From a phage: DNA of 64,000 bases. Below the pieces are notes generated by a model. It was not told the origin of the DNA. It made no database searches and saw only the letters and a program-made list of their open reading frames with translations. The position numbers were made by a program, and so were the translations under genes. Positions within the stretch are counted from its first letter, which is position 1. Every line of letters starts with the position of its first letter. Positions 16,721-28,559 of the stretch are shown piece after piece. Location of the stretch: NCBI GenBank assembly GCA_012455605.1, contig GCA_012455605.1_3618.1; one strand, given 5' to 3'.

Positions 16721-16739
16721 TACTTGAAAATTCCTGGCA

Positions 16740-17300
16740 TATCAAGTATAAGGGGGATTTCTAAAATGGATTTCCTCCTTTTGATATTTCACCGGGCCGG
16801 ATATTTTAAAATTCTTAGAAAATCAGAAAATGGATCGAAAACTAAAATGGATTTTTCAGAGTAGGCGCGACAAGCTGAATAACTCATCCTATCGTTTGCA
16901 CCATATTCCAGGCCACCATTATAGATTTCCCACACATGCTAACCTCTCTCTACTAGAACTTCCTCCACTTACCCTTGACCTTCTATGGTAACAATCTAAC
17001 CGCTATCTTGAAGTTGCGGTGCAGCTTTCCAGGTACTCGATCTACTTTTCATTTCAGGGCTTGGATTTTCTGAAAATTTTTCTCGATAAATTTCTCAGTA
17101 CTCGATCTGTTTTTCGTTTTCTGAATCGGATTTTCTGGAAATCGTTCCGGCTCTCAACCTGAAATTTTGGGGACGAAATCGATTTTTCGTTTTCAGAAAT
17201 GGATTTTTAAAATTTCTATATGGGAATATTTTAGTGGATACTATTTTATAGTAAATTGTTACGGAGGGTAATTAGCGTGCTAATTAAATTTATTAAATGC
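16740..17300. repeat. non-coding direct-repeat region (AAATGGATTT and TACTCGATCT-T-rich units)
   Basis: At least 4 copies of AAATGGAT(T/C), 2-3 of (G)TACTCGATCT(A/G)TTTT, 2 of GGATTTTCTG(G)AAA; no credible ORF. Confidence 0.6.
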
Positions 17301-17355
17301 GAGGAGTTCTCATTTAGAATTTTGAATGATAATCATTCTCGTTTGCAGAATAATG

Positions 17356-17377
17356 GGCAGGCCCGGTGATTGTCTCC
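17356..17377. other. conserved element GGCAGGCCCGGTGATTGTCTCC (copy 1; variant at 17498-17512)
   Basis: 22 nt recurs exactly in inverted orientation at 26837-26858. Confidence 0.5.
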
Positions 17378-17735
17378 CGGCCCCTGCTGCCCCGGCTTGT
17401 TATTATAGTATCACACAGGACAAAGAAAGCAAGGATTTTTTGCATAAACTTTTAAATGATAATGATAACCGTTCTCATTTTATGCAGCGCCCATCCCCGG
17501 TGGTTGTCTCCCCCGTCACCGGTGCCTGTCGTCCTTTCGATAGGTATATTGTGCCACCTGGCGGGGCCGCTGTCAACACTTTTCAAAAAATTTTTCTAAC
17601 CTGATGCGCTAACCGCTGCAACCTGGCGGGGCCAGCCTGGCAGGACCTAACTGACCAGGTAGGAGAGAATGAAGGCTTGTAAACCTGGTGGGCCTATGCT
17701 ATAGGAGAAGTAACAATTGAAGAGGAGGTACAAAA

Positions 17736-17912
17736 ATGGAAGGTAATATGATCCCCCTGGAAAATGTAGCTATTAATGACGCTGAGGCTATCGCCCTGGT
17801 TGAAAAGGCTATGGCGGGAGCGTTGGAATATAAAGAAGAGTACGAAAAAATGATGGTTAACCTGGCAGGGGTGGCGGCTGGAGAATTCCGCCCAAAAAAT
17901 AATTTTAACTAA
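17736..17912 (+). CDS. small hypothetical protein (58 aa)
   Basis: ORF below the track cutoff; GAGGAGG 7 nt upstream of the ATG. Confidence 0.4.
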   Translation: MEGNMIPLENVAINDAEAIALVEKAMAGALEYKEEYEKMMVNLAGVAAGEFRPKNNFN

Positions 17913-17915
17913 TGG

Positions 17916-17944
17916 TTGACAGCTCGGACAGTTCTTGTTATTCT
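17916..17944 (+). promoter_or_regulatory. sigma70-like promoter (TTGACA-N17-TATTCT)
   Basis: Consensus -35, acceptable -10. Confidence 0.4.
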
Positions 17945-17997
17945 TATCCTCACAAGGTGAACAACACCACACTAATTAACAGAGAGGATAAAAAATC

Positions 17998-18195
17998 ATG
18001 AACGCCTACGGAATCAAAGTACGTCGCAGCACTCGCCAGGTGGTCACCGATCAAATGGTTTGCCAGGTGGATGTAACCATCAACAACGGGCAAGGCCTTT
18101 ATAAATTTCGTCGCGGTCATAGCTATACCCTGCAACAGCTTAATCGTTGCGCCCTGACAAAAGGCCAGATCAACCACTGGTTTAATAAAAAATAA
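17998..18195 (+). CDS. hypothetical protein
   Basis: 65 aa basic protein. Confidence 0.45.
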   Translation: MNAYGIKVRRSTRQVVTDQMVCQVDVTINNGQGLYKFRRGHSYTLQQLNRCALTKGQINHWFNKK

Positions 18196-18198
18196 ATA

Positions 18199-18227
18199 TT
18201 GACATATAGTCTGACACAAAATATACT
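18199..18227 (+). promoter_or_regulatory. sigma70-like promoter (TTGACA-N17-TATACT)
   Basis: Consensus hexamers. Confidence 0.55.
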
Positions 18228-18259
18228 GAAATCACAAAAGACACTAAGAGGATAAAATC

Positions 18260-18658
18260 ATGAAAACCACAACCTTTAATTTTGATAATGCCGACTTCTC
18301 TTTTTCTGATGTCAAGAACTGCCGCCGTGATCGTGGATTTTACAAGGCTTATAATCTGGTTGGCCTGGACGATGATAATAATTTGCACGAAGTAGCGGAG
18401 ATCCGGTACTATGCCGCCGCCAGCGGTAACACTAACTATTGCGTTTTTTGGATACACGACAACAAGAACAATAAGTACGGTTATACTGGCGGCAAGGCGA
18501 GCGGTCACGGTTATGATAAAGCTAACGCAGCACTTGAGAGCGCATTAAATGCTATGGGGATCACTGCCAACGGCTGGATCTATGAAGAAGAGTTTTTGTC
18601 GGCACTTGCTGACCATCTAGGCTATAAAAAGCACATTGTAACATGCGCCCACGAATAA
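18260..18658 (+). CDS. hypothetical protein
   Basis: 132 aa. Confidence 0.5.
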   Translation: MKTTTFNFDNADFSFSDVKNCRRDRGFYKAYNLVGLDDDNNLHEVAEIRYYAAASGNTNYCVFWIHDNKNNKYGYTGGKASGHGYDKANAALESALNAMGITANGWIYEEEFLSALADHLGYKKHIVTCAHE

Positions 18659-18665
18659 AAAATCA

Positions 18666-18693
18666 TTGACACGCTGCAAAATTTAAGTAAACT
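18666..18693 (+). promoter_or_regulatory. sigma70-like promoter (TTGACA-N16-TAAACT)
   Basis: Consensus -35; TAAACT -10 as in the 45 bp repeat family. Confidence 0.45.
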
Positions 18694-18741
18694 AGGCACA
18701 AAAGGCGGGAATGTTTCCCGCCAACACGAAGGAAAAAGATC

Positions 18742-19146
18742 ATGAATAAGAACGTACGCCGCATCATGAACGAACTGGCAAACGATGAAAAAATTATTGA
18801 CATGCATTTAGTCAACATTTGCCGCCGTTGTGTAACATATAACAACCGCGCCGCAAAAGCGCGTGAGATGAACGCAAAAGGCACCTTAAAGCCATTCCAG
18901 GTGGTGGTAAAGGCCATTAAAGATGTAACTAATACGGCAAACCAGGTACAGGGGAACACCAACGAGAGTACCAATATTGATCCGGCTTACATCATGAAAC
19001 GGATCCGGACCTGCAAGAACAAAGAGCAAGTGTATAATGTCATAGACTGGTTGGATTCTATGGGCGATGTGGTTTACAATAGGTTTTCTGCAGCTATCGA
19101 GATCCAGCTTGACAGGTTGGACGGTAAAGTACTGAAAACTTACTAA
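18742..19146 (+). CDS. hypothetical protein
   Basis: 134 aa. Confidence 0.5.
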   Translation: MNKNVRRIMNELANDEKIIDMHLVNICRRCVTYNNRAAKAREMNAKGTLKPFQVVVKAIKDVTNTANQVQGNTNESTNIDPAYIMKRIRTCKNKEQVYNVIDWLDSMGDVVYNRFSAAIEIQLDRLDGKVLKTY

Positions 19147-19147
19147 G

Positions 19148-19193
19148 TTTATTTTTAGATGGCCTTGACTCCAGGGCCATCAATAAAGTAAAC
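19148..19193 (+). repeat. 45 bp intergenic repeat, copy 1 (T-tract, GATGGCC hairpin around TTGACT, TAAACT)
   Basis: Near-identical copies at 19769 and 23509, structural variant at 20104. Confidence 0.6.
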
Positions 19194-19426
19194 TAATCTC
19201 AACTAAGCGAAAAAGGGGGGCTTTAAGATGAGCACTACACGCCAATACACAAAGGTAACTATTATCGTTTGCGTTGTCGGTTACATCCTGGCGCAAATGT
19301 TAATGAGTAGCGCTAACAGTTTTGCAAAATTTTTCTTAAATTTTTAATTGACAAACTAACTTAGATCGATATACTTAAACACGTAAACGGGAAAACTTCC
19401 CAGAGCACACAAAAGGAGAAAACACC

Positions 19427-19768
19427 ATGACTACTATGACCGCCGCAGAAAAAGCTATGCAGATCGCCGCGCTGAAAAAACAGATCGCAGACCTTGAGAA
19501 TAAGATCGATAACTTTGAAATCGACGAGGACAAGTACGACGAAAACTATGATGAATGGTTAGACGAGATCTACGGCGAAATCATGATCGGAAACATTTCT
19601 TTTCTTCCGTCGCGTATCCTCAAGGAGCTAGATCCTATCGCTTACCGCTGCGGATTTAGCGACTACATCGACAGCCTGGATATTGAGGACGATGAAGAAT
19701 ACCAGGAATTACAGACAGAGCTCGAAGAAGTGAAAGAAGAGCTTGCAGAACTGGAAGAAAACGAGTAA
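19427..19768 (+). CDS. highly acidic small protein
   Basis: 113 aa, very rich in D/E (DIEDDEEYQELQTELEEVKEELAELEENE). Confidence 0.5.
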   Translation: MTTMTAAEKAMQIAALKKQIADLENKIDNFEIDEDKYDENYDEWLDEIYGEIMIGNISFLPSRILKELDPIAYRCGFSDYIDSLDIEDDEEYQELQTELEEVKEELAELEENE

Positions 19769-19815
19769 ATTTATTTTTAGATGGCCTTGACTTCAGGGCC
19801 ATCAATAAAGTAAAC
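19769..19815 (+). repeat. 45 bp intergenic repeat, copy 2
   Basis: ATTTATTTTTAGATGGCCTTGACTTCAGGGCCATCAATAAAGTAAAC. Confidence 0.6.
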
Positions 19816-19857
19816 TTTAGACTGTTAACACTTAACCAATACAGAGGAGTTAAAACC

Positions 19858-20103
19858 ATGGCCGCACTAATTACCAAATATTATGCCCCTACCAACACCA
19901 AAAGCGCCCGTATCATGGTAAAAGGCTTCGGACGTAAAAAGGTTTACACCTGGGATTATGCCTTAGACACGGAAGACAACTACACCAACGCGATGACCGA
20001 TTTTATTAATGATCTGAACACGCGGATCTTAACAAATTATAAAATTACCGACATTGCTTATATAGGTGAAGGCGGGATCTGTTTTGTAGGCATTGTGAAA
20101 TAG
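19858..20103 (+). CDS. hypothetical protein
   Basis: 81 aa. Confidence 0.45.
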   Translation: MAALITKYYAPTNTKSARIMVKGFGRKKVYTWDYALDTEDNYTNAMTDFINDLNTRILTNYKITDIAYIGEGGICFVGIVK

Positions 20104-20150
20104 TTATTTTTTCGGTGGTCCTGGCTGCAGGGCCATCTATAAAGATAATT
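20104..20150 (+). repeat. 45 bp intergenic repeat, divergent copy 3 (compensated hairpin GGTCCTG/CAGGGCC)
   Basis: Same T-tract/hairpin/ATAAAG layout with a different but still pairing stem. Confidence 0.5.
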
Positions 20151-20177
20151 TATTAACACAATGAAAGGAGAAAGTAC

Positions 20178-20531
20178 ATGATCAGCGGGGCAAGTTTTAT
20201 TATTGGCGCTATTGCTACGGCTTTAATTGTAAACAAGATCCAATCTAAAAACGAAAAAGAGAGCAACGCGCTCACAGAATACCCATTTTGGGTATTCAAC
20301 GACAATGAAGACTACATTATCAAGTACAAGAATGAGAAGGGCGACCAGGTAACACCGCGACCGATCCCAGCTTACAAGATGCAAGAAACACTATACCGCC
20401 TAAAGGCTGGAGGCGCAAAAATCGTAGACTTTTGGGGATATGATTGCAAGGATCAGGAGGTTATAAAACGGCGTATCCGGGCGATTCAGGCAAATATTGA
20501 AGTTAGCAAGGGGGGAATATATGAAGATTAA
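20178..20531 (+). CDS. hypothetical protein with N-terminal hydrophobic segment
   Basis: 117 aa; N-terminus ISGASFIIGAIATALIV. Confidence 0.45.
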   Translation: MISGASFIIGAIATALIVNKIQSKNEKESNALTEYPFWVFNDNEDYIIKYKNEKGDQVTPRPIPAYKMQETLYRLKAGGAKIVDFWGYDCKDQEVIKRRIRAIQANIEVSKGGIYED

Positions 20532-20718
20532 TTTTGAGAAGATTGTAAAGCGATCTCATGATTCCGAAGAGTTGCCGGAACGCCGCCAGCGCAACAATAA
20601 ATTGAATAAGCCAAAAAGATTTGGGAAGATCTGGCGGAATCATTATGATCGTAAATTGCCGGGCCTACTTTTGGAACGTGAACGACAGGCGGAACGATAC
20701 CGCCACAAAGGCAAATAA
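20521..20718 (+). CDS. small basic protein
   Basis: Start moved to the ATG at 20521 with AAGGGGGG upstream; Arg/Lys-rich. Confidence 0.4.
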   Translation: MKINFEKIVKRSHDSEELPERRQRNNKLNKPKRFGKIWRNHYDRKLPGLLLERERQAERYRHKGK

Positions 20719-20726
20719 CAACCAAC

Positions 20727-20755
20727 GCCCCGCCATTGTGCGGGGCTTTTTATTT
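20727..20755 (+). terminator. rho-independent terminator (GCCCCGC-CATTGT-GCGGGGC then TTTTTATTT)
   Basis: Perfect 7 bp GC stem followed by a T-tract. Confidence 0.7.
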
Positions 20756-20899
20756 CTATCCTACGAATAGCGCCCCTGGTTGGCCCTGTAAGCGCCAAAA
20801 AGGCCCCACCTATGCAATCGCCCCCCTTTAACCTGAAAACATCGCTTAGGGCCGTTTTATGGCGTTAAAAATATCATTGACAGTGATTTTATTTAAAGC

Positions 20900-20927
20900 T
20901 TGACATCTTAAACAGGTTAGCTATACT
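20900..20927 (+). promoter_or_regulatory. sigma70-like promoter (TTGACA-N16-TATACT)
   Basis: Consensus hexamers; a second TTGACA lies 25 bp upstream. Confidence 0.5.
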
Positions 20928-20959
20928 AACCACATCAAAGAGAGAAAGGAGTAAACGCC

Positions 20960-21220
20960 ATGCGTAAATTAAAAAATTTTGATAAAGTTGATGTTGTCCT
21001 GAATAATTTTTACTACTGCAACAACAAGGCCATTTGGTGGCGTGATAGTTCCACCGATAAAGTCAAGGCGCGCTTTCTCCAGGGGCACTGGCAAGGCCGC
21101 CCAGTGATTAAAATCATGGGGCAATTGGTAGCGTTTAAAAATTGCCGCCGTGTTGATGACGTTGAGGAGATTTTAAACATTTTGCGCCACAATAATTTAA
21201 AAAATAGTGTTGACAAGTAA
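20960..21220 (+). CDS. hypothetical protein
   Basis: 86 aa. Confidence 0.45.
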   Translation: MRKLKNFDKVDVVLNNFYYCNNKAIWWRDSSTDKVKARFLQGHWQGRPVIKIMGQLVAFKNCRRVDDVEEILNILRHNNLKNSVDK

Positions 21221-21237
21221 ATCTCAATAAGTATAAT
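21210..21237 (+). promoter_or_regulatory. sigma70-like promoter (TTGACA-N16-TATAAT)
   Basis: Perfect hexamers overlapping the upstream stop codon. Confidence 0.55.
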
Positions 21238-21294
21238 TAAACACACAGGCGGGAAAACTTACCGCCACTAACAAAGAAAACAGGAGAAAATATC

Positions 21295-21918
21295 ATGACC
21301 ACCGTTAACATTACCACAGGTTACAATTTATCTTTCGACGTGCTGACCGACGAACAAAAAGAAAAAGCCATTGAAATGGTACGCGAAAGAGAAGAACACA
21401 GCGGGGATGACTTTTTTGCAGAAAGTGTAATTGAACACTACAAAGAATATATCTTTCCAGAGTACGGCCTTGAAGATACCGAAGTACATTGGTCCGGTTT
21501 TTGGTGCCAGGGTGACGGCGCGTCAATCAGTGCTGAAAACGTGGATTTAGAAAAATTTTTGCGTAAAGTAAAGGCCCTGACCAAGTTCCGATCAATTCGT
21601 CACTTGTTCGGCACAATGCACGATGGCGAGTTATCAGCCAGTGTTGAACGCGACAAGTACAGCCATTACAGCCATGAAAACACTGTAAGCGGGTACATTG
21701 ATACCACTTGGCTAGATCTGACCGCCAAACAAGAAAACAAAGTGGAAGACCTGGAAGAACTGATCACCGAGACGGTACGGGAGCTATCCCGCAAGGTTTA
21801 CGTAGACCTGGAGGAGGCCTATCTAGAACAGTTCACCGCAGAAAACCTGATCGGCCTTATCGAGGCCAATGATTGGCGGTTTGATGTCGATGAATATGGT
21901 GAGATGACTTTTTCATAA
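21295..21918 (+). CDS. hypothetical protein
   Basis: 207 aa acidic protein. Confidence 0.5.
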   Translation: MTTVNITTGYNLSFDVLTDEQKEKAIEMVREREEHSGDDFFAESVIEHYKEYIFPEYGLEDTEVHWSGFWCQGDGASISAENVDLEKFLRKVKALTKFRSIRHLFGTMHDGELSASVERDKYSHYSHENTVSGYIDTTWLDLTAKQENKVEDLEELITETVRELSRKVYVDLEEAYLEQFTAENLIGLIEANDWRFDVDEYGEMTFS

Positions 21919-21926
21919 ATAAAGTG

Positions 21927-21954
21927 TTGCAATAACCTAAAAACCTGCTATATT
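21927..21954 (+). promoter_or_regulatory. sigma70-like promoter (TTGCAA-N16-TATATT)
   Basis: Near-consensus hexamers. Confidence 0.4.
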
Positions 21955-22008
21955 AAAACTCAAGGGGGCAAGACGTTTGCCCCCACACAAAACAAAGAGG
22001 AAAACATC

Positions 22009-22389
22009 ATGAAAAACACTACTAAAGCTATTGACACCGTTATGTTTAACCTGGTTACATTCCGTGAAGATATGAAAGATCTTCCACGTGAAACAGTGTG
22101 CGACCATATCGAAAACTATCGCAAACTAATCAAAGAGTTGCCTTTAAAACGTGACCAGTATGCGGCTAACGCTATGCTTAACGCCATGATCAAAAAGATG
22201 ATTCAGTGTGATTTAACTCTGGCCTATGATTATGCAGGTGGTCGTTTTGCAGTATACAATCAGCCCGTGCCTGGTATGAGCACCACCGAAGAATTGCACG
22301 CGTTAAATCTGAAACAAGATGTATGGGATAACATGCCCCGCGTGGTGGTGTGGGCAGAAAGCGGAAAGATTTACGGCGATAATTTTTAA
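22009..22389 (+). CDS. hypothetical protein
   Basis: 126 aa. Confidence 0.5.
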   Translation: MKNTTKAIDTVMFNLVTFREDMKDLPRETVCDHIENYRKLIKELPLKRDQYAANAMLNAMIKKMIQCDLTLAYDYAGGRFAVYNQPVPGMSTTEELHALNLKQDVWDNMPRVVVWAESGKIYGDNF

Positions 22390-22398
22390 TCAGGCAAC

Positions 22399-22426
22399 AG
22401 GCGGCATATTTGCCGCCTTATTGTTA
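22399..22426 (+). terminator. rho-independent terminator (AGGCGGCA-TATT-TGCCGCCT then TATTGTT)
   Basis: 8 bp stem; its position argues that the downstream gene starts at 22454. Confidence 0.5.
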
Positions 22427-22453
22427 AACAGAACTGCAAAAGAGGTACATAGA

Positions 22454-22825
22454 ATGGAATTTATTATTTTGGCTGTAGTAGTTGCCTTGTTCAACGCCTG
22501 GATCGCTGGCAAGATAGGTAGATCCGCTTTTCTATGGTTTGTTATATCTATTTTCCTGGGAGTGGTTGCAACTATTGTATTGGTTATCCTTGCAATTGTT
22601 GACAAGGGGAATAATAGAAAGGGTAAAGTGTTTTCCGACCTGTATGACGCACAAACGTTTGTCAACGCCTATTATAGTGATCTTCCAGTCTCCCTACGCT
22701 GCAGCCTGGCACAACAGGTTTTTGATGAGGCTAAAACCAGAGACCAAGCCCATGAGATATGTTTAACTGAGGCGGATCGCCTATTTGAGAGGAATAGAAA
22801 ATATGTGGACCAGCCGTTTAAATAA
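22454..22825 (+). CDS. putative membrane protein
   Basis: Start moved to MEFIIL; two hydrophobic segments. Confidence 0.45.
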   Translation: MEFIILAVVVALFNAWIAGKIGRSAFLWFVISIFLGVVATIVLVILAIVDKGNNRKGKVFSDLYDAQTFVNAYYSDLPVSLRCSLAQQVFDEAKTRDQAHEICLTEADRLFERNRKYVDQPFK

Positions 22826-22935
22826 CGCCACGTTAATTAATCCCTTTAGTGAAGATTTGAAGCCAGCCGCCTGGCGTGACGGATTCAATAACGAACGCTT
22901 TATTTTCAGGCCTGATCTTGAGGAATTTTATAACA

Positions 22936-23061
22936 ATGGATCGAACAACAGCGGAGATAATTTTTCTTGTGGTGTGCGTGGTGATAGGACTCCTGGGGGC
23001 CATTGTAAACCACGTAACTGCTAACAGGAGGGAAGGGGGAGACGATGACAACCAAGGATAA
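22936..23061 (+). CDS. small putative membrane protein
   Basis: MDRTTAEIIFLVVCVVIGLLGAIV; start choice uncertain and it conflicts with the overlapping ORF 22785-23024. Confidence 0.3.
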   Translation: MDRTTAEIIFLVVCVVIGLLGAIVNHVTANRREGGDDDNQG

Positions 23062-23168
23062 GCCCCGCACCGATAAGGCGCGCCGTGCTATGGTATGGCT
23101 TGAGATCATCGCCCTTGAAATATTGTTAGGCGTAGGGATGTATTTTATCGCTGTAAGTAACTGATAAC

Positions 23169-23212
23169 GGCCCCCGATCATGGGGCCTATCTTTAAAAAA
23201 AAAAAAATTTTT
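23169..23212 (+). terminator. GC hairpin (GGCCCC-GATCAT-GGGGCC) followed by an A13 run then T5
   Basis: Stem-loop plus a 13 nt homopolymeric A tract. Confidence 0.4.
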
Positions 23213-23223
23213 CTTCCGGGGTG

Positions 23224-23251
23224 TTGCAATCCGGTCCGGAATGTGGATAAT
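23224..23251 (+). promoter_or_regulatory. sigma70-like promoter (TTGCAA-N16/17-GATAAT)
   Basis: Near-consensus hexamers. Confidence 0.4.
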
Positions 23252-23306
23252 AACAATCAACGGGGAAACATCCCCACCAACACAAAAACCAGAAAGGAGA
23301 AACAAA

Positions 23307-23507
23307 ATGAGCAACAATATCCGCGTTATTAACTTCAAAAAAGAAGAAAAAATTGCCGTGCTGATTGACGGTCAAGAAATCTTCAAGGGCGACTATGAAG
23401 ATCATCAAACGGCGATTAGTATCACTCGCGTGATTGGTTATCATAATTTCTACCCCCAAGGCGCTGAAGCAGCAGTTAAACGAATCAAAGAGATTGTAGG
23501 CCTGTAA
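23307..23507 (+). CDS. hypothetical protein
   Basis: Start moved to MSNNIRV with AAGGAGA upstream. Confidence 0.45.
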   Translation: MSNNIRVINFKKEEKIAVLIDGQEIFKGDYEDHQTAISITRVIGYHNFYPQGAEAAVKRIKEIVGL

Positions 23508-23508
23508 A

Positions 23509-23553
23509 ATTTATTTTTAGATGGCCTTGACTTCAGGGCCATCGATAAAGTAA
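23509..23553 (+). repeat. 45 bp intergenic repeat, copy 4
   Basis: ATTTATTTTTAGATGGCCTTGACTTCAGGGCCATCGATAAAGTAAAT. Confidence 0.6.
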
Positions 23554-23600
23554 ATTTAAACCCTGTTAAAATACCACGCAGTTAACAAGGAGTGATAGAC

Positions 23601-23900
23601 ATGTTTATCCAGGCTAATAATCTTTATTTCTTTGATGGTCAGATCGTAGATGGTGTGGAAGTGGAGATCACCGGGTGCCCTGGCGGTCAGGCTATGACTT
23701 TTCGGAATAATGCCTTTGATGATTCTCATATAGTTATGAGAATGGAAGTTACGAAGCTGGACGACAAGAAAACACTCATTGACTATTCCGTGAAAGATCA
23801 TCCAGACTACCACATGATCTATGGTGATTTGTGCATTGTTGACCGTGACAAGGTGAACGGCATTGTGATCGCTATTGTGAACGATGTTTTCTCAAACTAA
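23601..23900 (+). CDS. hypothetical protein
   Basis: Start moved to MFIQANN with AAGGAG upstream. Confidence 0.45.
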   Translation: MFIQANNLYFFDGQIVDGVEVEITGCPGGQAMTFRNNAFDDSHIVMRMEVTKLDDKKTLIDYSVKDHPDYHMIYGDLCIVDRDKVNGIVIAIVNDVFSN

Positions 23901-23917
23901 TTTCAACAGGTCATTTT

Positions 23918-24268
23918 ATGAAAGTCAAACTATATTACCTTAATGAGCTTAACCCCCTTGCCCAGGTCCGCGCCCTGGCTAATACCTTGATTTGTGAGAA
24001 ATCTGTATATTGTGTTGAGCTTAACGCCATGCGTGAACGTCTCAAAGGTGGTTACTTTGACATCCATGCTGCAATCAACGGCCTGAATATGGAATTTATC
24101 CGCTTACGTAACAGCAGCCGGAATCTGGCAAGAATGGAACAAGATCCGGCCCACCTTCGTAAGCTGGTTATTGAAAATCATCTGATGTTCAATGCCGAGG
24201 GTGATTATTACCATTTTCAACGAAAACGTTGGTACCGTGGCGGCAATACAGGCAAGAATGCAAAATAA
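23918..24268 (+). CDS. hypothetical protein
   Basis: 116 aa. Confidence 0.45.
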   Translation: MKVKLYYLNELNPLAQVRALANTLICEKSVYCVELNAMRERLKGGYFDIHAAINGLNMEFIRLRNSSRNLARMEQDPAHLRKLVIENHLMFNAEGDYYHFQRKRWYRGGNTGKNAK

Positions 24269-24304
24269 GGCCCCTAGCAGGTCCTGCAGCGATATAATCA
24301 CATA

Positions 24305-24337
24305 AAGGCTATGCGGTTGCATGGCCTTTATTATTTT
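24305..24337 (+). terminator. rho-independent terminator (AAGGCTATGC-GGTT-GCATGGCCTT then TATTATTTT)
   Basis: Stem-loop followed by a T-rich tract. Confidence 0.5.
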
Positions 24338-24384
24338 AGCGTTACAGCGGCCCCAAGGCGCTTAAAAATTTTTTAAAGAAGTAC

Positions 24385-24413
24385 TTGCATCAAGCCCTAC
24401 AATATGGATAATA
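24385..24413 (+). promoter_or_regulatory. sigma70-like promoter (TTGCAT-N17-GATAAT)
   Basis: Near-consensus hexamers. Confidence 0.4.
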
Positions 24414-24469
24414 GGACGTGTCAGGGGGGGAGGCCCCAATCATTAACCGGATAGATAGGAGTTAAAACC

Positions 24470-24754
24470 ATGGCTATTGTTACCGCTGGCGATGTAGTAG
24501 AAATGGAAGCAAAATACTTAAAAGCGGGTATGCATATCCTACGCAACGATCTTGAACTAGTCCTGACAATGGTTGACTATAACCCAGGGCAAGATTATCC
24601 AAGCATCGACTACTTTTTTGAGTATGTTGATGAAGAGTTGAAAGAGGATGAGGCCTATTGCGGTGAGTTCTGCAACTTCTTTTGCCCTGATGAGGTTGTA
24701 AAAGTTATCTATCAACCTGGCGTACCTTTCCCGCTGCACGCTATCAATAAATAA
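24470..24754 (+). CDS. hypothetical protein
   Basis: 94 aa acidic protein. Confidence 0.45.
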   Translation: MAIVTAGDVVEMEAKYLKAGMHILRNDLELVLTMVDYNPGQDYPSIDYFFEYVDEELKEDEAYCGEFCNFFCPDEVVKVIYQPGVPFPLHAINK

Positions 24755-24809
24755 ACCTGGCGGGGCCGAAAAGGCCCCCAATTATGAAAATAAAGAGAGG
24801 CAAATCATC

Positions 24810-25043
24810 ATGATGGAACAAATTAAACGCGCCGAGGCTATTAATGGCAACGTGATCTATTTTGTCAGCAAAAACGAAAAAGGCGTACCATATGCGGCAG
24901 TAATAGTACAACCTGACGGCGATTATTGGTTTACTGTGTACGGCGCTTATTCTTTTGGGCGTCCAGTGCATGATAAAATTTTGAAAGTAGCGAACCCTAC
25001 CGGGAAGAATATCACAGCAGAAAAATTTTTTGAAAATAGTTGA
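24810..25043 (+). CDS. hypothetical protein
   Basis: 77 aa. Confidence 0.45.
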   Translation: MMEQIKRAEAINGNVIYFVSKNEKGVPYAAVIVQPDGDYWFTVYGAYSFGRPVHDKILKVANPTGKNITAEKFFENS

Positions 25044-25067
25044 CATGACCATATAAGACTGTAATAT
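25040..25067 (+). promoter_or_regulatory. sigma70-like promoter (TTGACA-N16-TAATAT)
   Basis: Consensus -35. Confidence 0.45.
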
Positions 25068-25118
25068 ATAAATCAAAGGGGGCAACGAACCCCACCAACT
25101 ACAAAGAGGATAAAAATC

Positions 25119-25298
25119 ATGGCTATTATTGCAAAGACTGAGATCGTAGGCTTAGATTCTATTCTCCTCGCATATGAGGAAGCTATAGAAATGTATGTGG
25201 TTTCCTATGGTGAGTATATCCGTGAATATAAATCTATTGATCTGGCTTTTGAATGTTATATCCGCCAGGTTAATAAAGCGTACGATGATTATCGTTAA
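25119..25298 (+). CDS. small hypothetical protein (59 aa)
   Basis: ORF below the track cutoff; AAGAGGA upstream; fills the gap between two promoters. Confidence 0.4.
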   Translation: MAIIAKTEIVGLDSILLAYEEAIEMYVVSYGEYIREYKSIDLAFECYIRQVNKAYDDYR

Positions 25299-25304
25299 AA
25301 TAGT

Positions 25305-25333
25305 TTGACAACAGCCATCTTACAAAGCATAAT
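25305..25333 (+). promoter_or_regulatory. sigma70-like promoter (TTGACA-N17-CATAAT)
   Basis: Consensus -35. Confidence 0.45.
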
Positions 25334-25385
25334 ACATAAGGCGGTGGAATGGTCCGCCACCTGGAACAAAGAAGAGGTAAACACC

Positions 25386-25631
25386 ATGAAAAGCAATAAA
25401 GGTTATAACGGTTACAAAAACAAAACTCATTGGAATGTAAGCCTTTGGATTAATAACGACGAGTCATTGTACCGGTTGGCCCAAGACTTTATTAACGCCA
25501 ATGCTAATCGTAATGATGCGGCGCGGGATATGATGCTTTTTCTGGAGCTAACCGGACAAGATAAGACCCCGGACGGCTTCAAGTACAGCACTACGGCGAT
25601 CCGTGCCGCGATGGTTGGAATGAAACACTAA
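25386..25631 (+). CDS. hypothetical protein
   Basis: Start moved to MKSNKGY with AGAGG upstream. Confidence 0.45.
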   Translation: MKSNKGYNGYKNKTHWNVSLWINNDESLYRLAQDFINANANRNDAARDMMLFLELTGQDKTPDGFKYSTTAIRAAMVGMKH

Positions 25632-26129
25632 AAGCACATAGCCGCCTTACCCTGGGGCCGTGGTAGCGGCCCCATGAATAAGGTTACTAACAGAAGAGAA
25701 TAAACACTATGAAACAGAAATTAATCGATGCAGTGATCTTGGTTATTGCCCTGGGTATTGGCCTGATTGCAACCATGGCTAATGTGATCTTGTCTTCCAA
25801 CGGTATCGGGTGAGGTTGGCAAATGATCACTAACAAAACAGGCAAAACAGAATTTTTACGCAACTTACAGATCGGCAAGCCTGAGATCTGGCATTGCACT
25901 AAAACACCACGTGACGAAATGAAAGACTTCACCGCCACGCTACAACGGGTAAAGATATCTATCACGCAGAAAAAGGCCTTACTAGTGGTGGAAGGGGAGA
26001 TCCCCCAAACCGTTGTTATAGTTGAGCGTACAGCATAGTTTAATTTATACCGATACCCGAAAATTAACCAACAAAGCATAAACAGGCGGTTACCGCCGCA
26101 TTAAACGTAGCAGAAAGAGGCTAGACACA

Positions 26130-26414
26130 ATGAAAAAGATTATCGCAGTGGTTGCCCTGGTTGTTGGACTTAATGCGCCTGCAATGGCTAAAGAGCTGGC
26201 AAAAGAGGTTGATCTAACGGATATCCATGCCGTCAATCAAATCGGGGTTACTTATCGCTTATGCCTTGCCGCTAAAACTTTTAATGACGGCACAACAGAG
26301 TACTACGGATTCGAGGGTATCCGGTGCGGTGAGCTTGCTCGCGACCTTAAGGAAGATCCAGACCTGGAGGATCTGCCCATAACCGTGAACGGGAAAACTT
26401 ACGTGAACCGTTAA
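26130..26414 (+). CDS. putative secreted/periplasmic protein
   Basis: Signal-peptide-like N-terminus MKKIIAVVALVVGLNAPAMA. Confidence 0.5.
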   Translation: MKKIIAVVALVVGLNAPAMAKELAKEVDLTDIHAVNQIGVTYRLCLAAKTFNDGTTEYYGFEGIRCGELARDLKEDPDLEDLPITVNGKTYVNR

Positions 26415-26563
26415 CCATGAGAAAGATAATTATCACCTTGGGGATCGTGGCGGGATCGCTGGCGCTCTTTCCCCTTATGGTTAGATATGTGCTGATCGGT
26501 ATTGTCCTGGCAGTCAGTGATCTATTGGAAACGGTTGGCACCTTGTTTTAAAGAGCGGTAAAA

Positions 26564-26755
26564 ATGAATATCGAACAAGTTAGAAAGGTATTGGCGGTAC
26601 TGCGTTATCATAATCATAGAAAGGTTATAGACGATCCTGATTATGTTGATTCAAGTCTGGAAGAGGATACGCTACAAGCCATAAGTAACATGCAAGAATT
26701 GCTAAAGCGCATGACAGAGAAAAACCGACCGGACTACATAGGCGAAAAAATATAA
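26564..26755 (+). CDS. hypothetical protein
   Basis: 63 aa. Confidence 0.4.
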   Translation: MNIEQVRKVLAVLRYHNHRKVIDDPDYVDSSLEEDTLQAISNMQELLKRMTEKNRPDYIGEKI

Positions 26756-26770
26756 TATTTATAAACTACA

Positions 26771-26800
26771 AAACAGGGCTTGCTATGGTCCTGTTTTTTG
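26771..26800 (+). terminator. rho-independent terminator (AAAACAGGGC...GGTCCTGTTTT then TTTG)
   Basis: Stem-loop followed by a T-tract. Confidence 0.55.
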
Positions 26801-26815
26801 TTATACTTATTACAC

Positions 26816-26858
26816 GGCAGGCACCTGGCGACGGGTGGAGACAATCACCGGGCCTGCC
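26816..26858. other. conserved element, inverted copy (reverse complement of GGCAGGCCCGGTGATTGTCTCC) inside a GGCAGGC/GCCTGCC hairpin
   Basis: Exact 22 nt match to 17356-17377 on the opposite strand. Confidence 0.5.
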
Positions 26859-26965
26859 TGTCATATAAGAACTATAAAAACCGTTGACATCTGCCAGGTG
26901 GTGGGGTAACATTATCTTGAAGGGGCAAAAGTGCCCACACAACAACCAGAAGAGAGGAAAACATC

Positions 26966-27238
26966 ATGTCAAGCTGGATTAATCAAGAAGTCGAATCACG
27001 TTTTAATGCTATTTGGGATCTCATCGAAAAAGAGGACGGAACATCAAGCCCTTACCTCAATAATCTTGAATTCCATTTTGTGGAAGCGATGAACGCAGAA
27101 CATGATCACGAAGGTGGCGCGGATGATTTCGCTAAAGGTTATGGCTTTAACAATGCCAACGAAATGATCGAGGCGGTCGTACTCCAGGCTGAGGAAGATT
27201 ATCAATTAAAAACGCTTGAATTCTGCCGCCATAAGTAA
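26966..27238 (+). CDS. hypothetical protein
   Basis: 90 aa acidic protein, AGAGAGGA upstream. Confidence 0.45.
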   Translation: MSSWINQEVESRFNAIWDLIEKEDGTSSPYLNNLEFHFVEAMNAEHDHEGGADDFAKGYGFNNANEMIEAVVLQAEEDYQLKTLEFCRHK

Positions 27239-27298
27239 TAAGATAATGACACGGGCCAAAAGGCCCGCTAATCAGAACCGCATAAAGAGGTAAACATC

Positions 27299-27562
27299 AT
27301 GAAACGTCTTGATCAGCTCAAACTAGTTCAGTACATGGCCTACAAAGTTCTTGAAGTCCAAAAAGGTAGCAAAAAAGAGGTTTGCGAGAAAGCATATAAG
27401 ATCTTTACCCGTAAAAAAGATGATTGGATGTTACGCCAGACCAAAAAAGCCGATATCCTGGGGTACCTGGAAGAAGAGATCCGACTTGAAGAGCAAGAAG
27501 AGATCCGCCGCAGTGAAGCAGATTATCAGGCAGCTTGGGAAAACTGGATGAGTAACAAATAA
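27299..27562 (+). CDS. hypothetical protein
   Basis: 87 aa charged protein. Confidence 0.45.
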   Translation: MKRLDQLKLVQYMAYKVLEVQKGSKKEVCEKAYKIFTRKKDDWMLRQTKKADILGYLEEEIRLEEQEEIRRSEADYQAAWENWMSNK

Positions 27563-27628
27563 TACAACAAGTTGCACGATCAGGGGGCAATAAAGCCCCT
27601 TGATCACATAAAAATTATGCTATCCTTA

Positions 27629-27657
27629 TTGACAAGGATCGGCAGTTTTGCTATATT
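27629..27657 (+). promoter_or_regulatory. sigma70-like promoter (TTGACA-N17-TATATT)
   Basis: Consensus hexamers. Confidence 0.5.
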
Positions 27658-27706
27658 CTTTTTTGAAGGGAAGTTGTAAAAAAATTAACTAAGAGGTAAA
27701 AACACC

Positions 27707-28126
27707 ATGAACATTAAATCTAATAATCCGGCATATAGCTTTGATAACGCTTTTTGTCACGGCCCGGCGGCGAAAGGATTCGAAATCGATGGTAAACTAA
27801 TTATTGTCAATGTTGACGGGGAAGAGGTTGCAGTATATCCGGTGGCAGACGTAAAAAGCCGTTTACAATGCCGCATTGATGTTACCGCCTATCAGCTTGA
27901 TCCGGTCCGCATAGTTGCCCTGGTCCTGGAAGAAGAAATTAAAGCCATGCACCATAGCAACAGGTTTATTGGTGACGCCCAGGATAATATGAAGGTATGC
28001 CGCCATAAAGTTAATGAAGTGCTTAAAGAATATGGCTTTAAAGATCTGATGATCAAACGTGAGGAAAAATTCCGCTACCGTAACGACCTGGCAAATCGAA
28101 TCTATGAAATATACGAATCATTATAA
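27707..28126 (+). CDS. hypothetical protein
   Basis: 139 aa; last plus-strand gene before the convergent region. Confidence 0.5.
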   Translation: MNIKSNNPAYSFDNAFCHGPAAKGFEIDGKLIIVNVDGEEVAVYPVADVKSRLQCRIDVTAYQLDPVRIVALVLEEEIKAMHHSNRFIGDAQDNMKVCRHKVNEVLKEYGFKDLMIKREEKFRYRNDLANRIYEIYESL

Positions 28127-28144
28127 TTTCTTAACTAAACTATC

Positions 28145-28172
28145 AGGGGCTTTAAAAGGCCCCTTTCTTTTT
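28145..28172 (+). terminator. rho-independent terminator (AGGGGC-TTTAAAAG-GCCCCT then TTCTTTTTG)
   Basis: Stem-loop and T-tract closing the plus-strand block. Confidence 0.6.
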
Positions 28173-28559
28173 GTCTGTATTTCTCCTACCACAAACGGCC
28201 CAGCCTGGCAAGTGGAATAATTGACTAGCCATCAATCCCACACACTGTACAAACATACATGTAAAATAACTATTGCATAATTTTTCATTGTGTGGTAGCA
28301 GGGCCATTTTTACCCGTTTTCTCTCTCAAAATTGCACGTAATGCCGCTATTGCACAAAATTTAACCTGATGCACATCTTCAATATCTTGTCAACAACTAA
28401 AAATCTTTATAAGTCATACACTTACACACTCACAAAAGCGTGTTCTACGTGAAAAATCGAGTATAACTATAGCCGCCAGATCTCAGAATTTACGTACGCT
28501 CACCATTCTATAGTCTGCTAAGTATTTATTCCAACCATAGAATAACGGAATAGTCAATA

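What the first reader, a model, noticed from the sequence alone, without database searches (positions are those of the whole stretch)
17736..28126. Host-takeover-like module: about 25 small genes, mostly with their own consensus promoter and intrinsic terminator
Strong TTGACA-N16/17-TATAAT-like promoters precede most genes and GC hairpin/T-tract terminators follow many. Products are mostly 60-140 aa and include a highly acidic protein (19427-19768, possible DNA mimic), a signal-peptide protein (26130-26414) and small membrane proteins. This monocistronic organisation resembles early host-takeover modules of large virulent phages.
Basis: partly seen in the sequence, partly recalled or inferred. 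Interest (0 to 1): 0.55.

Follow-up and report, generated by a model that had tools for sequence, protein, structure and literature searches.

The report
Shufflable small-gene array in rV5-like phage
This is the known block of about 30 small non-structural genes of unknown function in an rV5-like E. coli phage; about half have a host-type promoter, and many sit behind a reusable promoter-hairpin-ribosome-site cassette where genes are swapped between related phages, much like the regulatory cassettes of T4-type phages.

Summary
The window is an rV5-like (Vequintavirus) coliphage, and 17736-28126 corresponds to rV5 ORFs 164-196/197. The 2013 rV5 paper already annotated sigma70 promoters and terminators here.

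- There are 30 plus-strand ORFs of 34-207 aa, all in PHROG families of unknown function.
- Strong sigma70 promoters are real: 11 on the coding strand, 0 on the other, 1.7 expected.
- Only about 15 of 30 genes have their own promoter, and only about 6 intrinsic terminators are credible.
- Similar promoters cover both non-structural arms of the window.

Most "GC hairpins" are not terminators. They lie between the -10 element and the ribosome-binding site, have no T tract, and end 19-35 nt before the ATG.

Together with the promoter and ribosome-binding site, the hairpin forms an ~85-nt cassette. A covariance model built only from a Phapecoctavirus array finds it 7 times in the window, all inside this block. 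In a complete relative genome all hits also fall in the homologous block. Covariation and plus-strand G-U pairs support an RNA hairpin.

Gene-sized indels between relatives break inside these cassettes. That makes this a PeSL-like hyperplastic accessory-gene array.

Early expression and host take-over remain inferred. The DNA-mimic idea found no support.

The parts
17736..28126 (+). Array of 30 small ORFs (34-207 aa), equivalent to rV5 ORFs 164-196/197. It forms the distal end of the leftward early/middle arm.
   Evidence: each of the 29 ORFs scanned matches a PHROG of unknown function
18660..18743 (+). Promoter-hairpin-RBS cassette: TTGACA-16-TAAACT, an 8-bp GC hairpin at 18704-18722, then SD.
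   Evidence: covariance model R1 49.4 bits, E 2.5e-8; hairpin -14.6 kcal/mol, z -3.9
19338..19426 (+). Promoter-hairpin-RBS cassette upstream of the acidic-protein gene.
   Evidence: R1 E 3e-4; 11/12 promoter; weak hairpin
21204..21294 (+). Promoter-hairpin-RBS cassette (12/12 promoter) upstream of the 207-aa gene.
   Evidence: R1 37.2 bits, E 1.2e-5; hairpin z -4.3
21921..22005 (+). Promoter (9/12)-hairpin-RBS cassette.
   Evidence: R1 E 8.5e-4; hairpin -15.9 kcal/mol, z -4.0
25034..25117 (+). Promoter-hairpin-RBS cassette. Homology with phage JEP1 ends at its -35 hexamer.
   Evidence: R1 E 2e-5; breakpoint
25297..25382 (+). Promoter-hairpin-RBS cassette. It is a recombination junction in rV5, PDX and ime.
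   Evidence: R1 E 4.2e-5
26878..26962 (+). Promoter-hairpin-RBS cassette (rV5 P168).
   Evidence: R1 E 0.026; hairpin z -2.5
19145..19195 (+). 51-nt palindromic promoter cassette, copy 1. It has an AT-rich UP-like run, and its -35 TTGACT lies in the loop of GATGGCC/GGCCATC, followed by TAAACT.
   Evidence: (D1)
19767..19817 (+). 51-nt palindromic promoter cassette, copy 2. Recombination with copy 1 accounts for the loss of genes 19228 and 19427 in phages ime and L009.
   Evidence: fold -20.3 kcal/mol, z -6.1
23507..23557 (+). 51-nt palindromic promoter cassette, copy 3.
20101..20151 (+). Degenerate fourth copy of the 51-nt cassette (73% identity; the -35 is lost).
   Evidence: D1
17916..17944 (+). 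Sigma70 promoter without a hairpin (rV5 P195A).
18199..18227 (+). Sigma70 promoter without a hairpin (rV5 P195).
20900..20927 (+). Sigma70 promoter (rV5 P186).
27629..27657 (+). Sigma70 promoter with extended -10 (rV5 P164).
23224..23275 (+). 9/12 promoter plus the GGGG/CCCC 5' hairpin (23262-23275). The loop is hypervariable between relatives.
24762..24778 (+). RBS-proximal GC hairpin with no recognisable promoter, 31 nt before the ATG.
25653..25674 (+). RBS-proximal GC hairpin with no promoter. It belongs to the inserted gene module 25401-25691.
26085..26097 (+). RBS-proximal GC hairpin with no promoter.
27252..27267 (+). RBS-proximal GC hairpin with no promoter. The adjacent 35 nt (27268-27302) is duplicated around the extra ORF166 in rV5 and ime.
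20727..20746 (+). Strong intrinsic terminator (7 GC pairs followed by TTTTTATTT).
22399..22418 (+). Weak terminator (rV5 t184) that is also an RBS-proximal hairpin. The genes after it have no promoter of their own.
23169..23187 (+). Terminator-like hairpin (rV5 t181) with a weak T tail.
24302..24331 (+). Intrinsic terminator (rV5 t177).
26770..26807 (+). Terminator overlapped by a promoter: the -35 TTGCTA lies in the loop, the T tract serves as the spacer, and TATACT is the -10.
   Evidence: compared with the promoter-coupled terminators
28145..28164 (+). Terminator that closes the array (rV5 t164).
20521..20718 (+). Basic 65-aa protein, a homologue of T7 gp1.1.
   Evidence: Pfam PF08200, E 1.1e-10
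19427..19768 (+). Acidic 113-aa protein (net charge -26) with a helix/beta-hairpin/helix model. It is absent from phage ime.
25386..25631 (+). DUF7249 protein. The gene is absent from rV5 and replaced by other genes in ime, PDX and JEP1.
26130..26414 (+). 94-aa protein with a Sec-type signal peptide.
   Evidence: read directly from the sequence

Best explanation
The region is the hyperplastic accessory-gene array at the far end of the early/middle arm of an rV5-like phage. That arm runs from the rIIB gene through the helicase and DNA polymerase genes to this block.

About 30 small, non-structural and individually dispensable genes are expressed by unmodified host RNA polymerase from about 15 sigma70 promoters. 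Transcripts are ended or attenuated by about 6 intrinsic terminators.

Many genes sit behind a portable ~85-nt expression cassette. It consists of a sigma70 promoter, a short GC hairpin that starts about 4-5 nt into the transcript, an A-rich unstructured linker, and a strong Shine-Dalgarno sequence.

I infer that the hairpin acts at the RNA level. It would be a 5'-terminal (and, for read-through transcripts, intercistronic) stabiliser and insulator that keeps the ribosome site open whatever lies upstream.

The repeated cassettes, the 51-nt palindromic promoter and the near-identical RBS regions also serve as patches of homology. Recombination at these patches inserts, deletes and swaps genes within and between Vequintavirus, Phapecoctavirus and Justusliebigvirus.

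Shown: the anatomy, the cassette family and where it is confined, hairpin covariation, and indel junctions inside cassettes.

Inferred: promoter activity, early timing, the stabiliser role, and host take-over or anti-defence functions of the products.
For: IDENTITY AND PRIOR ANNOTATION.
- The block is 95-96% identical to SophiaRose, FFH2 and rV5.
- rV5 Table S4 lists 9 of its 33 promoters and 4 of its 20 terminators in this 10 kb.

PROMOTERS.
- Strand-specific excess: 11 against 0, with 1.7 expected.

HAIRPINS.
- Hairpins between the -10 and the SD are confined to this block. Promoters elsewhere in the window have short hairpin-free leaders.
- Thirteen hairpins end 19-35 nt before an ATG.
- The SD is left unpaired in every fold.

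CASSETTE FAMILY.
- Model R1 was built only from the Phapecoctavirus anhysbys array.
- It finds 7 cassettes in the window, all on the plus strand and all inside 18.6-27.0 kb.
- In the complete PDX genome all 8 hits lie in the homologous block.
- Justusliebigvirus alia gives 17 hits and phage PsgM04F 19.

STRUCTURE.
- 91.6% of cells are paired.
- 30 double-change cells against 10.5 +/- 2.4 in shuffles (0 of 500 reach it); slid controls give about 0.
- One pair splits GC:CG 30:20, and G-U pairs occur on the plus strand.

SHUFFLING.
- Phage ime lacks 19195-19769, with a single hybrid 51-nt cassette at the junction.
- rV5 lacks 25401-25691, which is flanked by 32-nt RBS repeats.
- The extra ORF166 in rV5 is flanked by 35-nt repeats.
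- Homology with JEP1 and PDX ends inside promoters.
- Copies of the 51-nt cassette within one genome share the same variants, which indicates concerted evolution.
- JEP1's replacement genes match Phapecoctavirus, Justusliebigvirus and Av-05 at 88-94%.
- Outside the genus only about 10% of the block is conserved.

NON-STRUCTURAL STATUS.
-.
Against: - There is no transcript mapping or timing data for any rV5-like phage, so promoter use, transcription start sites and 'early' timing rest on sequence alone.
- The same sigma70 promoter type also precedes replication genes, so timing may be early and middle, or continuous.
- Covariation comes largely from paralogous cassettes that fall into a few subtypes, and from an alignment fitted to the model. 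The number of independent events is therefore smaller than the cell counts suggest.
- Orthologous comparisons among 8 close genomes show few informative stem changes and a few disruptive ones.
- Five RBS-proximal hairpins have no promoter, so they cannot be 5'-terminal stabilisers of a primary transcript.
- Half of the indels (23903-24257, 26426-26560) have no obvious repeat at the junction.
- No gene product has an assigned function.
Confidence: 0.62

Rival explanations
1. One reading: a dedicated early host-takeover module of monocistronic genes, each with its own consensus promoter and intrinsic terminator. Its products (a DNA mimic, membrane and secreted proteins) would shut down or remodel the host.
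For: - Strong strand-specific sigma70 promoters.
- A homologue of T7 gp1.1.
- Acidic, signal-peptide and small membrane proteins are present.
- The genes are non-structural.
Against: - Only about half of the genes have a promoter, and only about 6 terminators are credible.
- Most hairpins are leaders, not terminators.
- Promoter density is similar over the replication arms.
- The acidic protein has no fold match to known DNA mimics and is missing from a viable relative.
- No host target is known.
Confidence: 0.3
2. The GC hairpins are transcription attenuators or weak terminators on the plus strand. They would trim read-through from upstream promoters and so set graded expression along the array.
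For: - They are GC-rich stems of 5-9 bp located between genes.
- 22399 is listed as terminator t184 in rV5 and lies at the same RBS-proximal position.
- Promoter-coupled terminators are now reported to be common in bacteria, and 26770 fits that design.
Against: - Twelve of the 13 RBS-proximal hairpins are followed by A-rich sequence with 0-3 T in 10 nt. Without a U tract, intrinsic termination in E. coli is inefficient (established knowledge).
- In promoter-bearing cassettes the hairpin lies downstream of the start site, so it would also attenuate its own gene.
Confidence: 0.15
3. The hairpins work on the minus strand. They would act as terminators or insulators that stop antisense transcription entering from the convergent replication arm at 31-64 kb.
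For: Seven of the 13 RBS-proximal hairpins have 6 T in the 10 nt that follow them on the minus strand, for example TTTTGTGCCT and TTGAGTTTTA. The scan lists several of them as minus-strand terminator-like sites.
Against: - G-U pairs occur on the plus strand (15 cells over four pairs, 11 of them at two pairs). These would be C-A mismatches on the minus strand.
- The T-rich minus-strand tails are simply the A-rich initial transcribed region of the plus strand, and they are rarely uninterrupted.
- The strong terminator at 28145 (rV5 t164) and a 2.5-3 kb non-coding gap already separate the two arms.
Confidence: 0.08
4. The hairpins, or the GATGGCC/GGCCATC palindrome, are binding sites for a phage regulator. 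This could be an operator or translational repressor that shuts the array off, or a nut/put-like site that modifies RNA polymerase.
For: - Their position is fixed relative to the promoter and RBS.
- The 24-bp palindrome overlaps the -35 in three copies that are 94-100% identical.
- The flank CACATAGGGCGG is strongly conserved in Phapecoctavirus cassettes.
- Terminator palindromes can double as transcription-factor sites (section list).
Against: - Stem sequences, loop sizes and loop sequences differ widely among cassettes. This fits a generic structural role better than specific recognition.
- No DNA- or RNA-binding protein was identified in the block.
Confidence: 0.12

Closest known systems
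PeSL (promoter-early stem-loop) cassettes of the hyperplastic regions of T4-type phages (Arbiol et al. 2010, PMC2839356; Comeau et al. 2014, PMC4122927)
   Same: - Arrays of small, mostly ORFan, non-essential genes.
- Each gene is preceded by a repeated cassette combining a strong sigma70-like promoter with a GC stem-loop (often GGGG...CCCC) and a Shine-Dalgarno sequence.
- Gene-sized indels and replacements between close relatives have crossovers inside the cassettes.
- rV5's neighbouring ORFs 205, 206, 209 and 210 have homologues in RB49, phi1 and JSE, and its GenBank record notes an RB49 homologue for ORF167, which lies inside the block.
   Different: - The order of the elements differs. 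In RB49/phi1 the stem-loop is an effective terminator placed upstream of an AT-rich stretch and the promoter. Here the hairpin lies downstream of the -10, inside the leader, and has no U tract. In the 51-nt element the hairpin encloses the -35.
- The phage lineage is unrelated (Vequintavirinae and Stephanstirmvirinae).
- There is no sequence similarity to T4-type PeSLs.
- Mini-circle formation was not tested.
Early region of phage T7 (class I genes 0.3-1.3)
   Same: - Small host-directed genes are transcribed by host RNA polymerase from consensus promoters.
- RNA hairpins between genes shape discrete stable mRNAs.
- A gp1.1 homologue is present.
   Different: - T7 uses three clustered promoters, one terminator and long RNase III sites (established knowledge).
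- This block has about 15 dispersed promoters and short 5-9 bp hairpins, which are too short for RNase III.
- Only the 51-nt palindrome (about 18 bp) approaches RNase III size.
Promoter-coupled terminators (Fletcher et al. 2026 preprint, 10.64898/2026.08.19.745784)
   Same: In 26770-26807, stem-loop DNA supplies the -35, the T tract is the spacer and a -10 follows directly. In the 51-nt cassette the -35 also lies within a stem-loop.
   Different: The 51-nt cassette has no T tract after the stem. The main cassette family has its hairpin after the start site, not before it.
5'-terminal stem-loop mRNA stabilisers (for example the ompA leader; established knowledge, not tested here)
   Same: A stable hairpin lies within a few nucleotides of the predicted 5' end, followed by an unstructured ribosome-binding region.
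   Different: - Start sites are only predicted here.
- Four to six unpaired 5' nucleotides would be borderline for protection.
- Five of the hairpins have no promoter.

Membership tests
rV5-like small-gene block (rV5 ORFs 164-196/197, genus Vequintavirus) | Nucleotide identity and synteny with rV5 and its relatives | tested here: met
   95-96% identity over 100% of the block to SophiaRose, A6-1 and FFH2. It is colinear with rV5 ORFs 164-196/197.
PeSL regulatory cassettes (T4-type phages) | A repeated intergenic cassette combining a strong sigma70-like promoter with a stem-loop, located in a region rich in small non-essential genes | tested here: met
   Seven covariance-model cassettes plus 3-4 copies of the 51-nt cassette, all confined to the block.
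PeSL regulatory cassettes (T4-type phages) | The stem-loop is an effective terminator placed upstream of the promoter (order: SL, AT-rich stretch, -35, -10, SD) | tested here: not met
   The hairpin lies between the -10 and the SD and has no T tract.
PeSL regulatory cassettes (T4-type phages) | Indels or replacements between close relatives with crossovers inside the cassettes | tested here: met
   The hybrid cassette in ime; 32-nt and 35-nt repeat junctions in rV5; breakpoints at the -35 hexamers for JEP1 and PDX.
PeSL regulatory cassettes (T4-type phages) | Formation of encapsidated mini-circles by recombination between cassettes | not testable with these tools
   Requires inverse PCR on infected cells or virions.
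PeSL regulatory cassettes (T4-type phages) | Sequence homology to the T4-type PeSL consensus | not tested
   No T4-type PeSL sequences were fetched. The model built here hit only rV5-like and phAPEC8-like contigs.
Early host-takeover module (T4/T5/T7 sense) | Transcription in the first minutes of infection | not testable with these tools
   No time-resolved data were found. Only host-type promoters argue for it.
Early host-takeover module (T4/T5/T7 sense) | Products that inhibit or redirect host functions | tested here: inconclusive
   Pfam gives only Phage_1_1 and DUF7249. The two AlphaFold models have no PDB fold match.
DNA-mimic proteins (Ocr/ArdA-like), for 19427-19768 | A fold or charge pattern that mimics B-DNA, with similarity to a known mimic | tested here: not met
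   The protein is highly acidic. The pLDDT-90 model is helix/beta-hairpin/helix, and its best PDB hit is prefoldin beta at E 1.9. There are no sequence hits. Acidity alone is not diagnostic.
Intrinsic (Rho-independent) terminators, for the RBS-proximal hairpins | A GC-rich stem immediately followed by a U tract | tested here: not met
   0-3 T in the 10 nt after the stem for 12 of 13 hairpins. The linker is 53% A and 11% T.

The most novel reading that the evidence does not exclude
The ~85-nt promoter / 5'-hairpin / A-rich linker / SD unit may be an undescribed family of 'plug-and-play' expression cassettes shared by Vequintavirinae and Stephanstirmvirinae phages.

On this reading its RNA hairpin protects and insulates each accessory-gene mRNA, possibly against phage-induced RNase E activity, since rV5 encodes a putative Srd homologue. 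The cassette itself would be the vehicle that moves genes between phage subfamilies.

The 51-nt palindromic promoter would be a second cassette type that may also act as an RNA processing site.
Probability: 0.3. Interest if true: 0.6.

Novelty: new variant of a known kind. Interest (0 to 1): 0.4.

Why it matters

Four things are added here.
- Most of the "terminators" are conserved leader hairpins.
- Together with the promoter and ribosome-binding site, the hairpin forms a recognisable cassette family. The family is confined genome-wide to this array and is shared by two phage subfamilies.
- Gene gain, loss and replacement occur at these cassettes.
- The modular-shuffling principle known from T4-type phages therefore extends to an unrelated group of therapeutic E. 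coli phages, with a different cassette design.

This has practical uses.
- The cassettes mark the accessory genes most likely to determine host range or counter host defences.
- They mark natural "landing pads" for engineering these phages.
- They are compact, context-insulated expression parts.
- The role of the hairpin could be settled with a simple reporter and half-life experiment.

Tried and rejected
- Rfam: no family at gathering thresholds in the whole window. Only a chance-level hit appeared in 16.6-17.8 kb at E <= 1.
- tRNA scan: none found.
- Product names in some GenBank records are unsupported: acetyltransferase, phosphonoacetaldehyde hydrolase, YeeU-like antitoxin, FtsK-like translocase, Rel homology domain. 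Pfam does not support any of them. For the two proteins tested, 21295-21918 and 19427-19768, PDB sequence and fold searches also found nothing.
- AlphaFold models of the 207-aa and the acidic 113-aa proteins were confident (pLDDT 87 and 90) but gave no fold match below E 0.7. No function could be assigned.
- rV5 late-promoter motif TGGTAAAATA: only two one-mismatch matches in the block. I rejected it as a driver of these genes.
- A 15-mer from the Phapecoctavirus cassette searched in IMG/VR returned 21 contigs. The model confirmed cassettes only in L018, a 149.5-kb contig with multiple strong cassette hits like the phAPEC8-like arrays. The rest were chance matches.
- I considered that the block adjoins a physical genome end, so that it would be injected first. 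Record start points near it are inconsistent and carry no terminal-repeat annotation, so this stays unresolved.
- I considered that the 22-nt perfect inverted repeat (17356/26837) marks an invertible segment. I rejected this because all seven relatives are colinear.
- Orthologous stem covariation among 8 close genomes was too sparse to be decisive. Paralogous cassettes from several genera were used instead.
- The PADLOC library was not used, because it models defence proteins rather than anti-defence proteins.

Full report
**What the window is.**
- The 10.4-kb stretch is 95-96% identical over its full length to Vequintavirus phages (SophiaRose, A6-1, FFH2, rV5 derivatives). 294 phage records match it.
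- It corresponds to rV5 ORFs 164-196/197.
- In the window's orientation, plus-strand genes run from 1 to 28126. These include the genes for a putative helicase, methyltransferase, AAA ATPase, family-A DNA polymerase and endonuclease VII, followed by small ORFs.
- They converge on a minus-strand arm at about 30.6-64 kb that carries ribonucleotide reductase, thymidylate synthase and other replication and nucleotide-metabolism genes.
- A 2.5-3 kb non-coding gap separates the two arms.
- The rV5 genome paper (PMC3606486) assigned ORFs 10-1-238-164 to one transcription unit. Its Table S4 lists promoters P164, P168, P174, P185, P186, P192, P194, P195 and P195A and terminators t164, t177, t181 and t184 inside this block. 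That is 9 of 33 promoters and 4 of 20 terminators in 7% of the genome.
- The block and its sigma70 signals are therefore already in the literature.

**Checking the observation: genes.**
- I count 30 plus-strand ORFs with Shine-Dalgarno sequences, 34-207 aa, median 83.5 aa.
- Each of the 29 ORFs scanned matches a PHROG family of unknown function at E 1e-26 to 1e-96. The 34-aa ORF 25709-25813 was not scanned.
- Pfam recognises only Phage_1_1 (T7 gp1.1; 20521-20718, E 1e-10) and DUF7249 (25386-25631).

**Checking the observation: promoters.**
- Promoters scoring at least 10/12 number 11 on the plus strand and 0 on the minus strand, against 1.69 +/- 1.29 in dinucleotide shuffles.
- Ten of the 11 are intergenic. 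Five more genes have 9/12 promoters.
- About 15 of 30 genes therefore have their own promoter.
- The same kind of coding-strand-specific promoter occurs at 0.66/kb in 1-16.7 kb and 0.76/kb on the minus strand of 31-64 kb, against 1.06/kb here. Consensus promoters are a property of both non-structural arms, not a signature of this block.

**Checking the observation: terminators.**
- Only six plus-strand hairpins have T-rich tails: 20727, 22399, 23169, 24302, 26770 and 28145.

**What the other hairpins are.**
- Reading every intergenic spacer showed that most GC hairpins lie between the -10 hexamer and the Shine-Dalgarno sequence.
- They start about 10-11 nt after the -10, which is about +4/+5 of the predicted transcript.
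- They are followed by an A-rich linker (53% A, 11% T) rather than a T tract.
- Thirteen hairpins end 19-35 nt before an ATG.
- In RNA folds the hairpin forms and the ribosome site stays unpaired. z-scores range from -1.1 to -4.3, with 9 of the 13 at or below -1.98.
- Promoters elsewhere in the window have short leaders without such hairpins.
- Spacers in the block are long and uniform: median 76 nt, against 10 nt for the upstream genes of the same arm (computed from the coordinates).

**A cassette family.**
- The syntenic small-gene array of Phapecoctavirus anhysbys belongs to a different subfamily, Stephanstirmvirinae. It shows the same design much more regularly.
- In 18-20 of its 28 spacers the order is TTGACA, 16-17 nt, TAAnnT, GTATCACATAG, hairpin, linker, SD.
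- A covariance model built only from those 18 spacers finds seven cassettes in the window: 18660, 19338, 21204, 21921, 25034 and 25297 at E <= 1e-3, and 26878 at E 0.026.
- All seven are on the plus strand and inside the block. Nothing outside the block scores better than E 0.1 in the 64 kb.
- In the complete 138-kb genome of phage PDX all eight hits fall in the homologous block.
- Justusliebigvirus alia has 17 hits and phage PsgM04F has 19.
- Unrelated IMG/VR contigs have none.
- On 63 aligned cassettes, 91.6% of stem cells pair. Thirty cells carry changes on both sides, against 10.5 +/- 2.4 in shuffles (0 of 500). Slid controls give about 0. One pair splits GC:CG 30:20, and G-U pairs occur on the plus strand.
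- Caveats: many cassettes are paralogues of a few subtypes, and the alignment is fitted to the model. Even so, the result supports a hairpin selected in the plus-strand RNA.

**A second repeat.**
- A 51-nt near-palindrome is present in three copies plus one degenerate copy, only in this block.
- It reads AAATTTATTTTTA-GATGGCC-TTGACTyCA-GGGCCATC-AATAAAG-TAAACT.
- Its -35 hexamer lies in the loop of the stem and is TTGACT or the consensus TTGACA in different phages.
- Copies within one genome share the same variants, which indicates gene conversion between them.
- As RNA it folds to -20.3 kcal/mol, z -6.1.

**Gene turnover at the cassettes.** I compared seven relatives.
- Phage ime, and the IMG/VR contig L009, lack 19195-19769 (the 39-aa membrane-protein gene and the acidic-protein gene). 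They carry a single hybrid 51-nt cassette at the junction.
- rV5 lacks 25401-25691 (the DUF7249 gene). The junction falls in a 32-nt RBS/ATG repeat.
- rV5 and ime carry an extra ORF166 flanked by a 35-nt repeat equal to 27268-27302.
- Homology with JEP1 ends at the -35 of the 25040 promoter, and homology with PDX ends at the 25305 promoter.
- Other indels (23903-24257; 26426-26560; a 354-nt insertion replacing 26757-26795) have no obvious repeat at the junction.
- JEP1's replacement genes come with high-scoring cassettes and match Phapecoctavirus, Justusliebigvirus and Av-05 at 88-94%.
- Outside the genus only about 10% of the block is conserved at the DNA level.
- Homologues of single genes occur in jumbo phages (DNA matches covering the 207-aa gene region) and in ~50-kb phages such as U136B (the 26966 protein).
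- In rV5, the neighbouring ORFs 205, 206, 209 and 210 have homologues in RB49, phi1 and JSE, and the GenBank record notes an RB49 homologue for ORF167 inside the block.

**Interpretation.**
- The block is a hyperplastic accessory-gene array. The closest known system is the PeSL cassettes of T4-type phages. Those are strong sigma70 promoters combined with stem-loops in regions rich in small non-essential genes, where recombination between cassettes shuffles genes.
- The design differs. In RB49/phi1 the stem-loop is a terminator upstream of the promoter. Here it is a leader hairpin downstream of the start site, or it encloses the -35.
- I therefore treat this as working like PeSLs but as a distinct variant, not a member of that family.
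- My best inference for the hairpin is an RNA-level stabiliser and insulator that keeps the ribosome site accessible. From established knowledge, 5'-terminal hairpins protect E. coli mRNAs. rV5 is reported to encode a putative Srd homologue.
- This role is untested. Five promoter-less hairpins must act differently, for example as intercistronic processing barriers.
- Rivals are attenuators, minus-strand terminators and regulator-binding sites. They are weakened respectively by the missing U tracts, by plus-strand G-U pairs, and by the diversity of stems and loops.
- The terminator at 26770 has a -35 in its loop, its T tract as the spacer and a TATACT -10. It matches the "promoter-coupled terminator" design of a 2026 preprint.

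- Nothing contradicts early, host-directed function. The genes are non-structural, none of rV5 gp164-199 is marked with virion mass-spectrometry evidence, the promoters are host-type, and a T7 early-gene homologue is present.
- Nothing demonstrates it either. I found no transcriptomic data for this phage group.
- Confident AlphaFold models of the 207-aa protein (pLDDT 87) and the acidic protein (pLDDT 90) have no PDB fold match. The DNA-mimic suggestion rests on charge alone, and that gene is absent from a viable relative.

**Verdict.**
- The block itself is already known. The cassette family and its role in gene shuffling appear undescribed in the literature I could search. They amount to a new variant of a known kind.
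- Interest is moderate.

Noticed in passing
window 28130-30500 (extending to about 31130): The non-coding gap between the convergent arms is the 'non-coding' box in the rV5 paper. CTCTTCAGR occurs 7 times on the plus strand within 29712-31133 (11 in the window against 1.3 expected). TGTAAACWR occurs 7 times within 28581-29431. There is a 16-nt tandem repeat at 29065-29104 and an 18-nt perfect inverted repeat at 28823/28957. GC content dips to 0.38. It could be an origin, a packaging site or a regulatory region. Several GenBank records start their numbering near here.
   Followed up: partly
window 16721-17735: A 1-kb stretch without credible ORFs lies just upstream of the array. It has roughly 65-nt tandem-like repeats at 17026-17210 and a minus-strand sigma70 promoter at 17576-17548 pointing into it. 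Phapecoctavirus anhysbys has an analogous non-coding stretch with an annotated repeat_region and a minus-strand small CDS before its array. Rfam gives no match.
   Followed up: partly
window 17335-17450 (-), 17462-17580 (-), 26776-26890 (+): Three paralogous units each combine a promoter-like sequence with a conserved core GGAGACAAYCACCGGG inside a GGCAGGC/GCCTGCC-type stem. Two of them share a 22-nt perfect inverted repeat (17356-17377 and 26837-26858). They could be small RNA genes. The folds are only weakly better than shuffles (z -1.2 to -2.7). All relatives are colinear, so this is not an inversion system.
   Followed up: partly
window 26770-26807: The terminator hairpin has a loop that supplies a -35 (TTGCTA), a T tract that serves as the spacer, and a TATACT -10 directly after it. 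The variant sequence in rV5_ev168 keeps the same design, with TTGACT in the loop.
   Followed up: partly
window 1-16700 and 31000-64000: Consensus sigma70 promoters (at least 10/12) are almost exclusively on the coding strand of both arms: 11 against 1 and 25 against 5. This includes promoters in front of replication and nucleotide-metabolism genes. It fits the suggestion in the rV5 paper that host RNA polymerase is not reprogrammed for these genes.
   Followed up: partly
L005 (phage JEP1) 12300-13960: In place of window 25046-26558, JEP1 carries a mosaic of different small genes. Pieces of it are 88-94% identical to Phapecoctavirus, Justusliebigvirus and Av-05. This indicates recent gene flow between phage subfamilies.
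   Followed up: partly
window 25709-25813: A 34-aa hydrophobic ORF (MKQKLIDAVILVIALGIGLIATMANVILSSNGIG) is conserved in rV5 (ORF173), and a similar sequence lies in the Phapecoctavirus anhysbys array. It falls below the 35-aa cut-off of my ORF listing.
   Followed up: no
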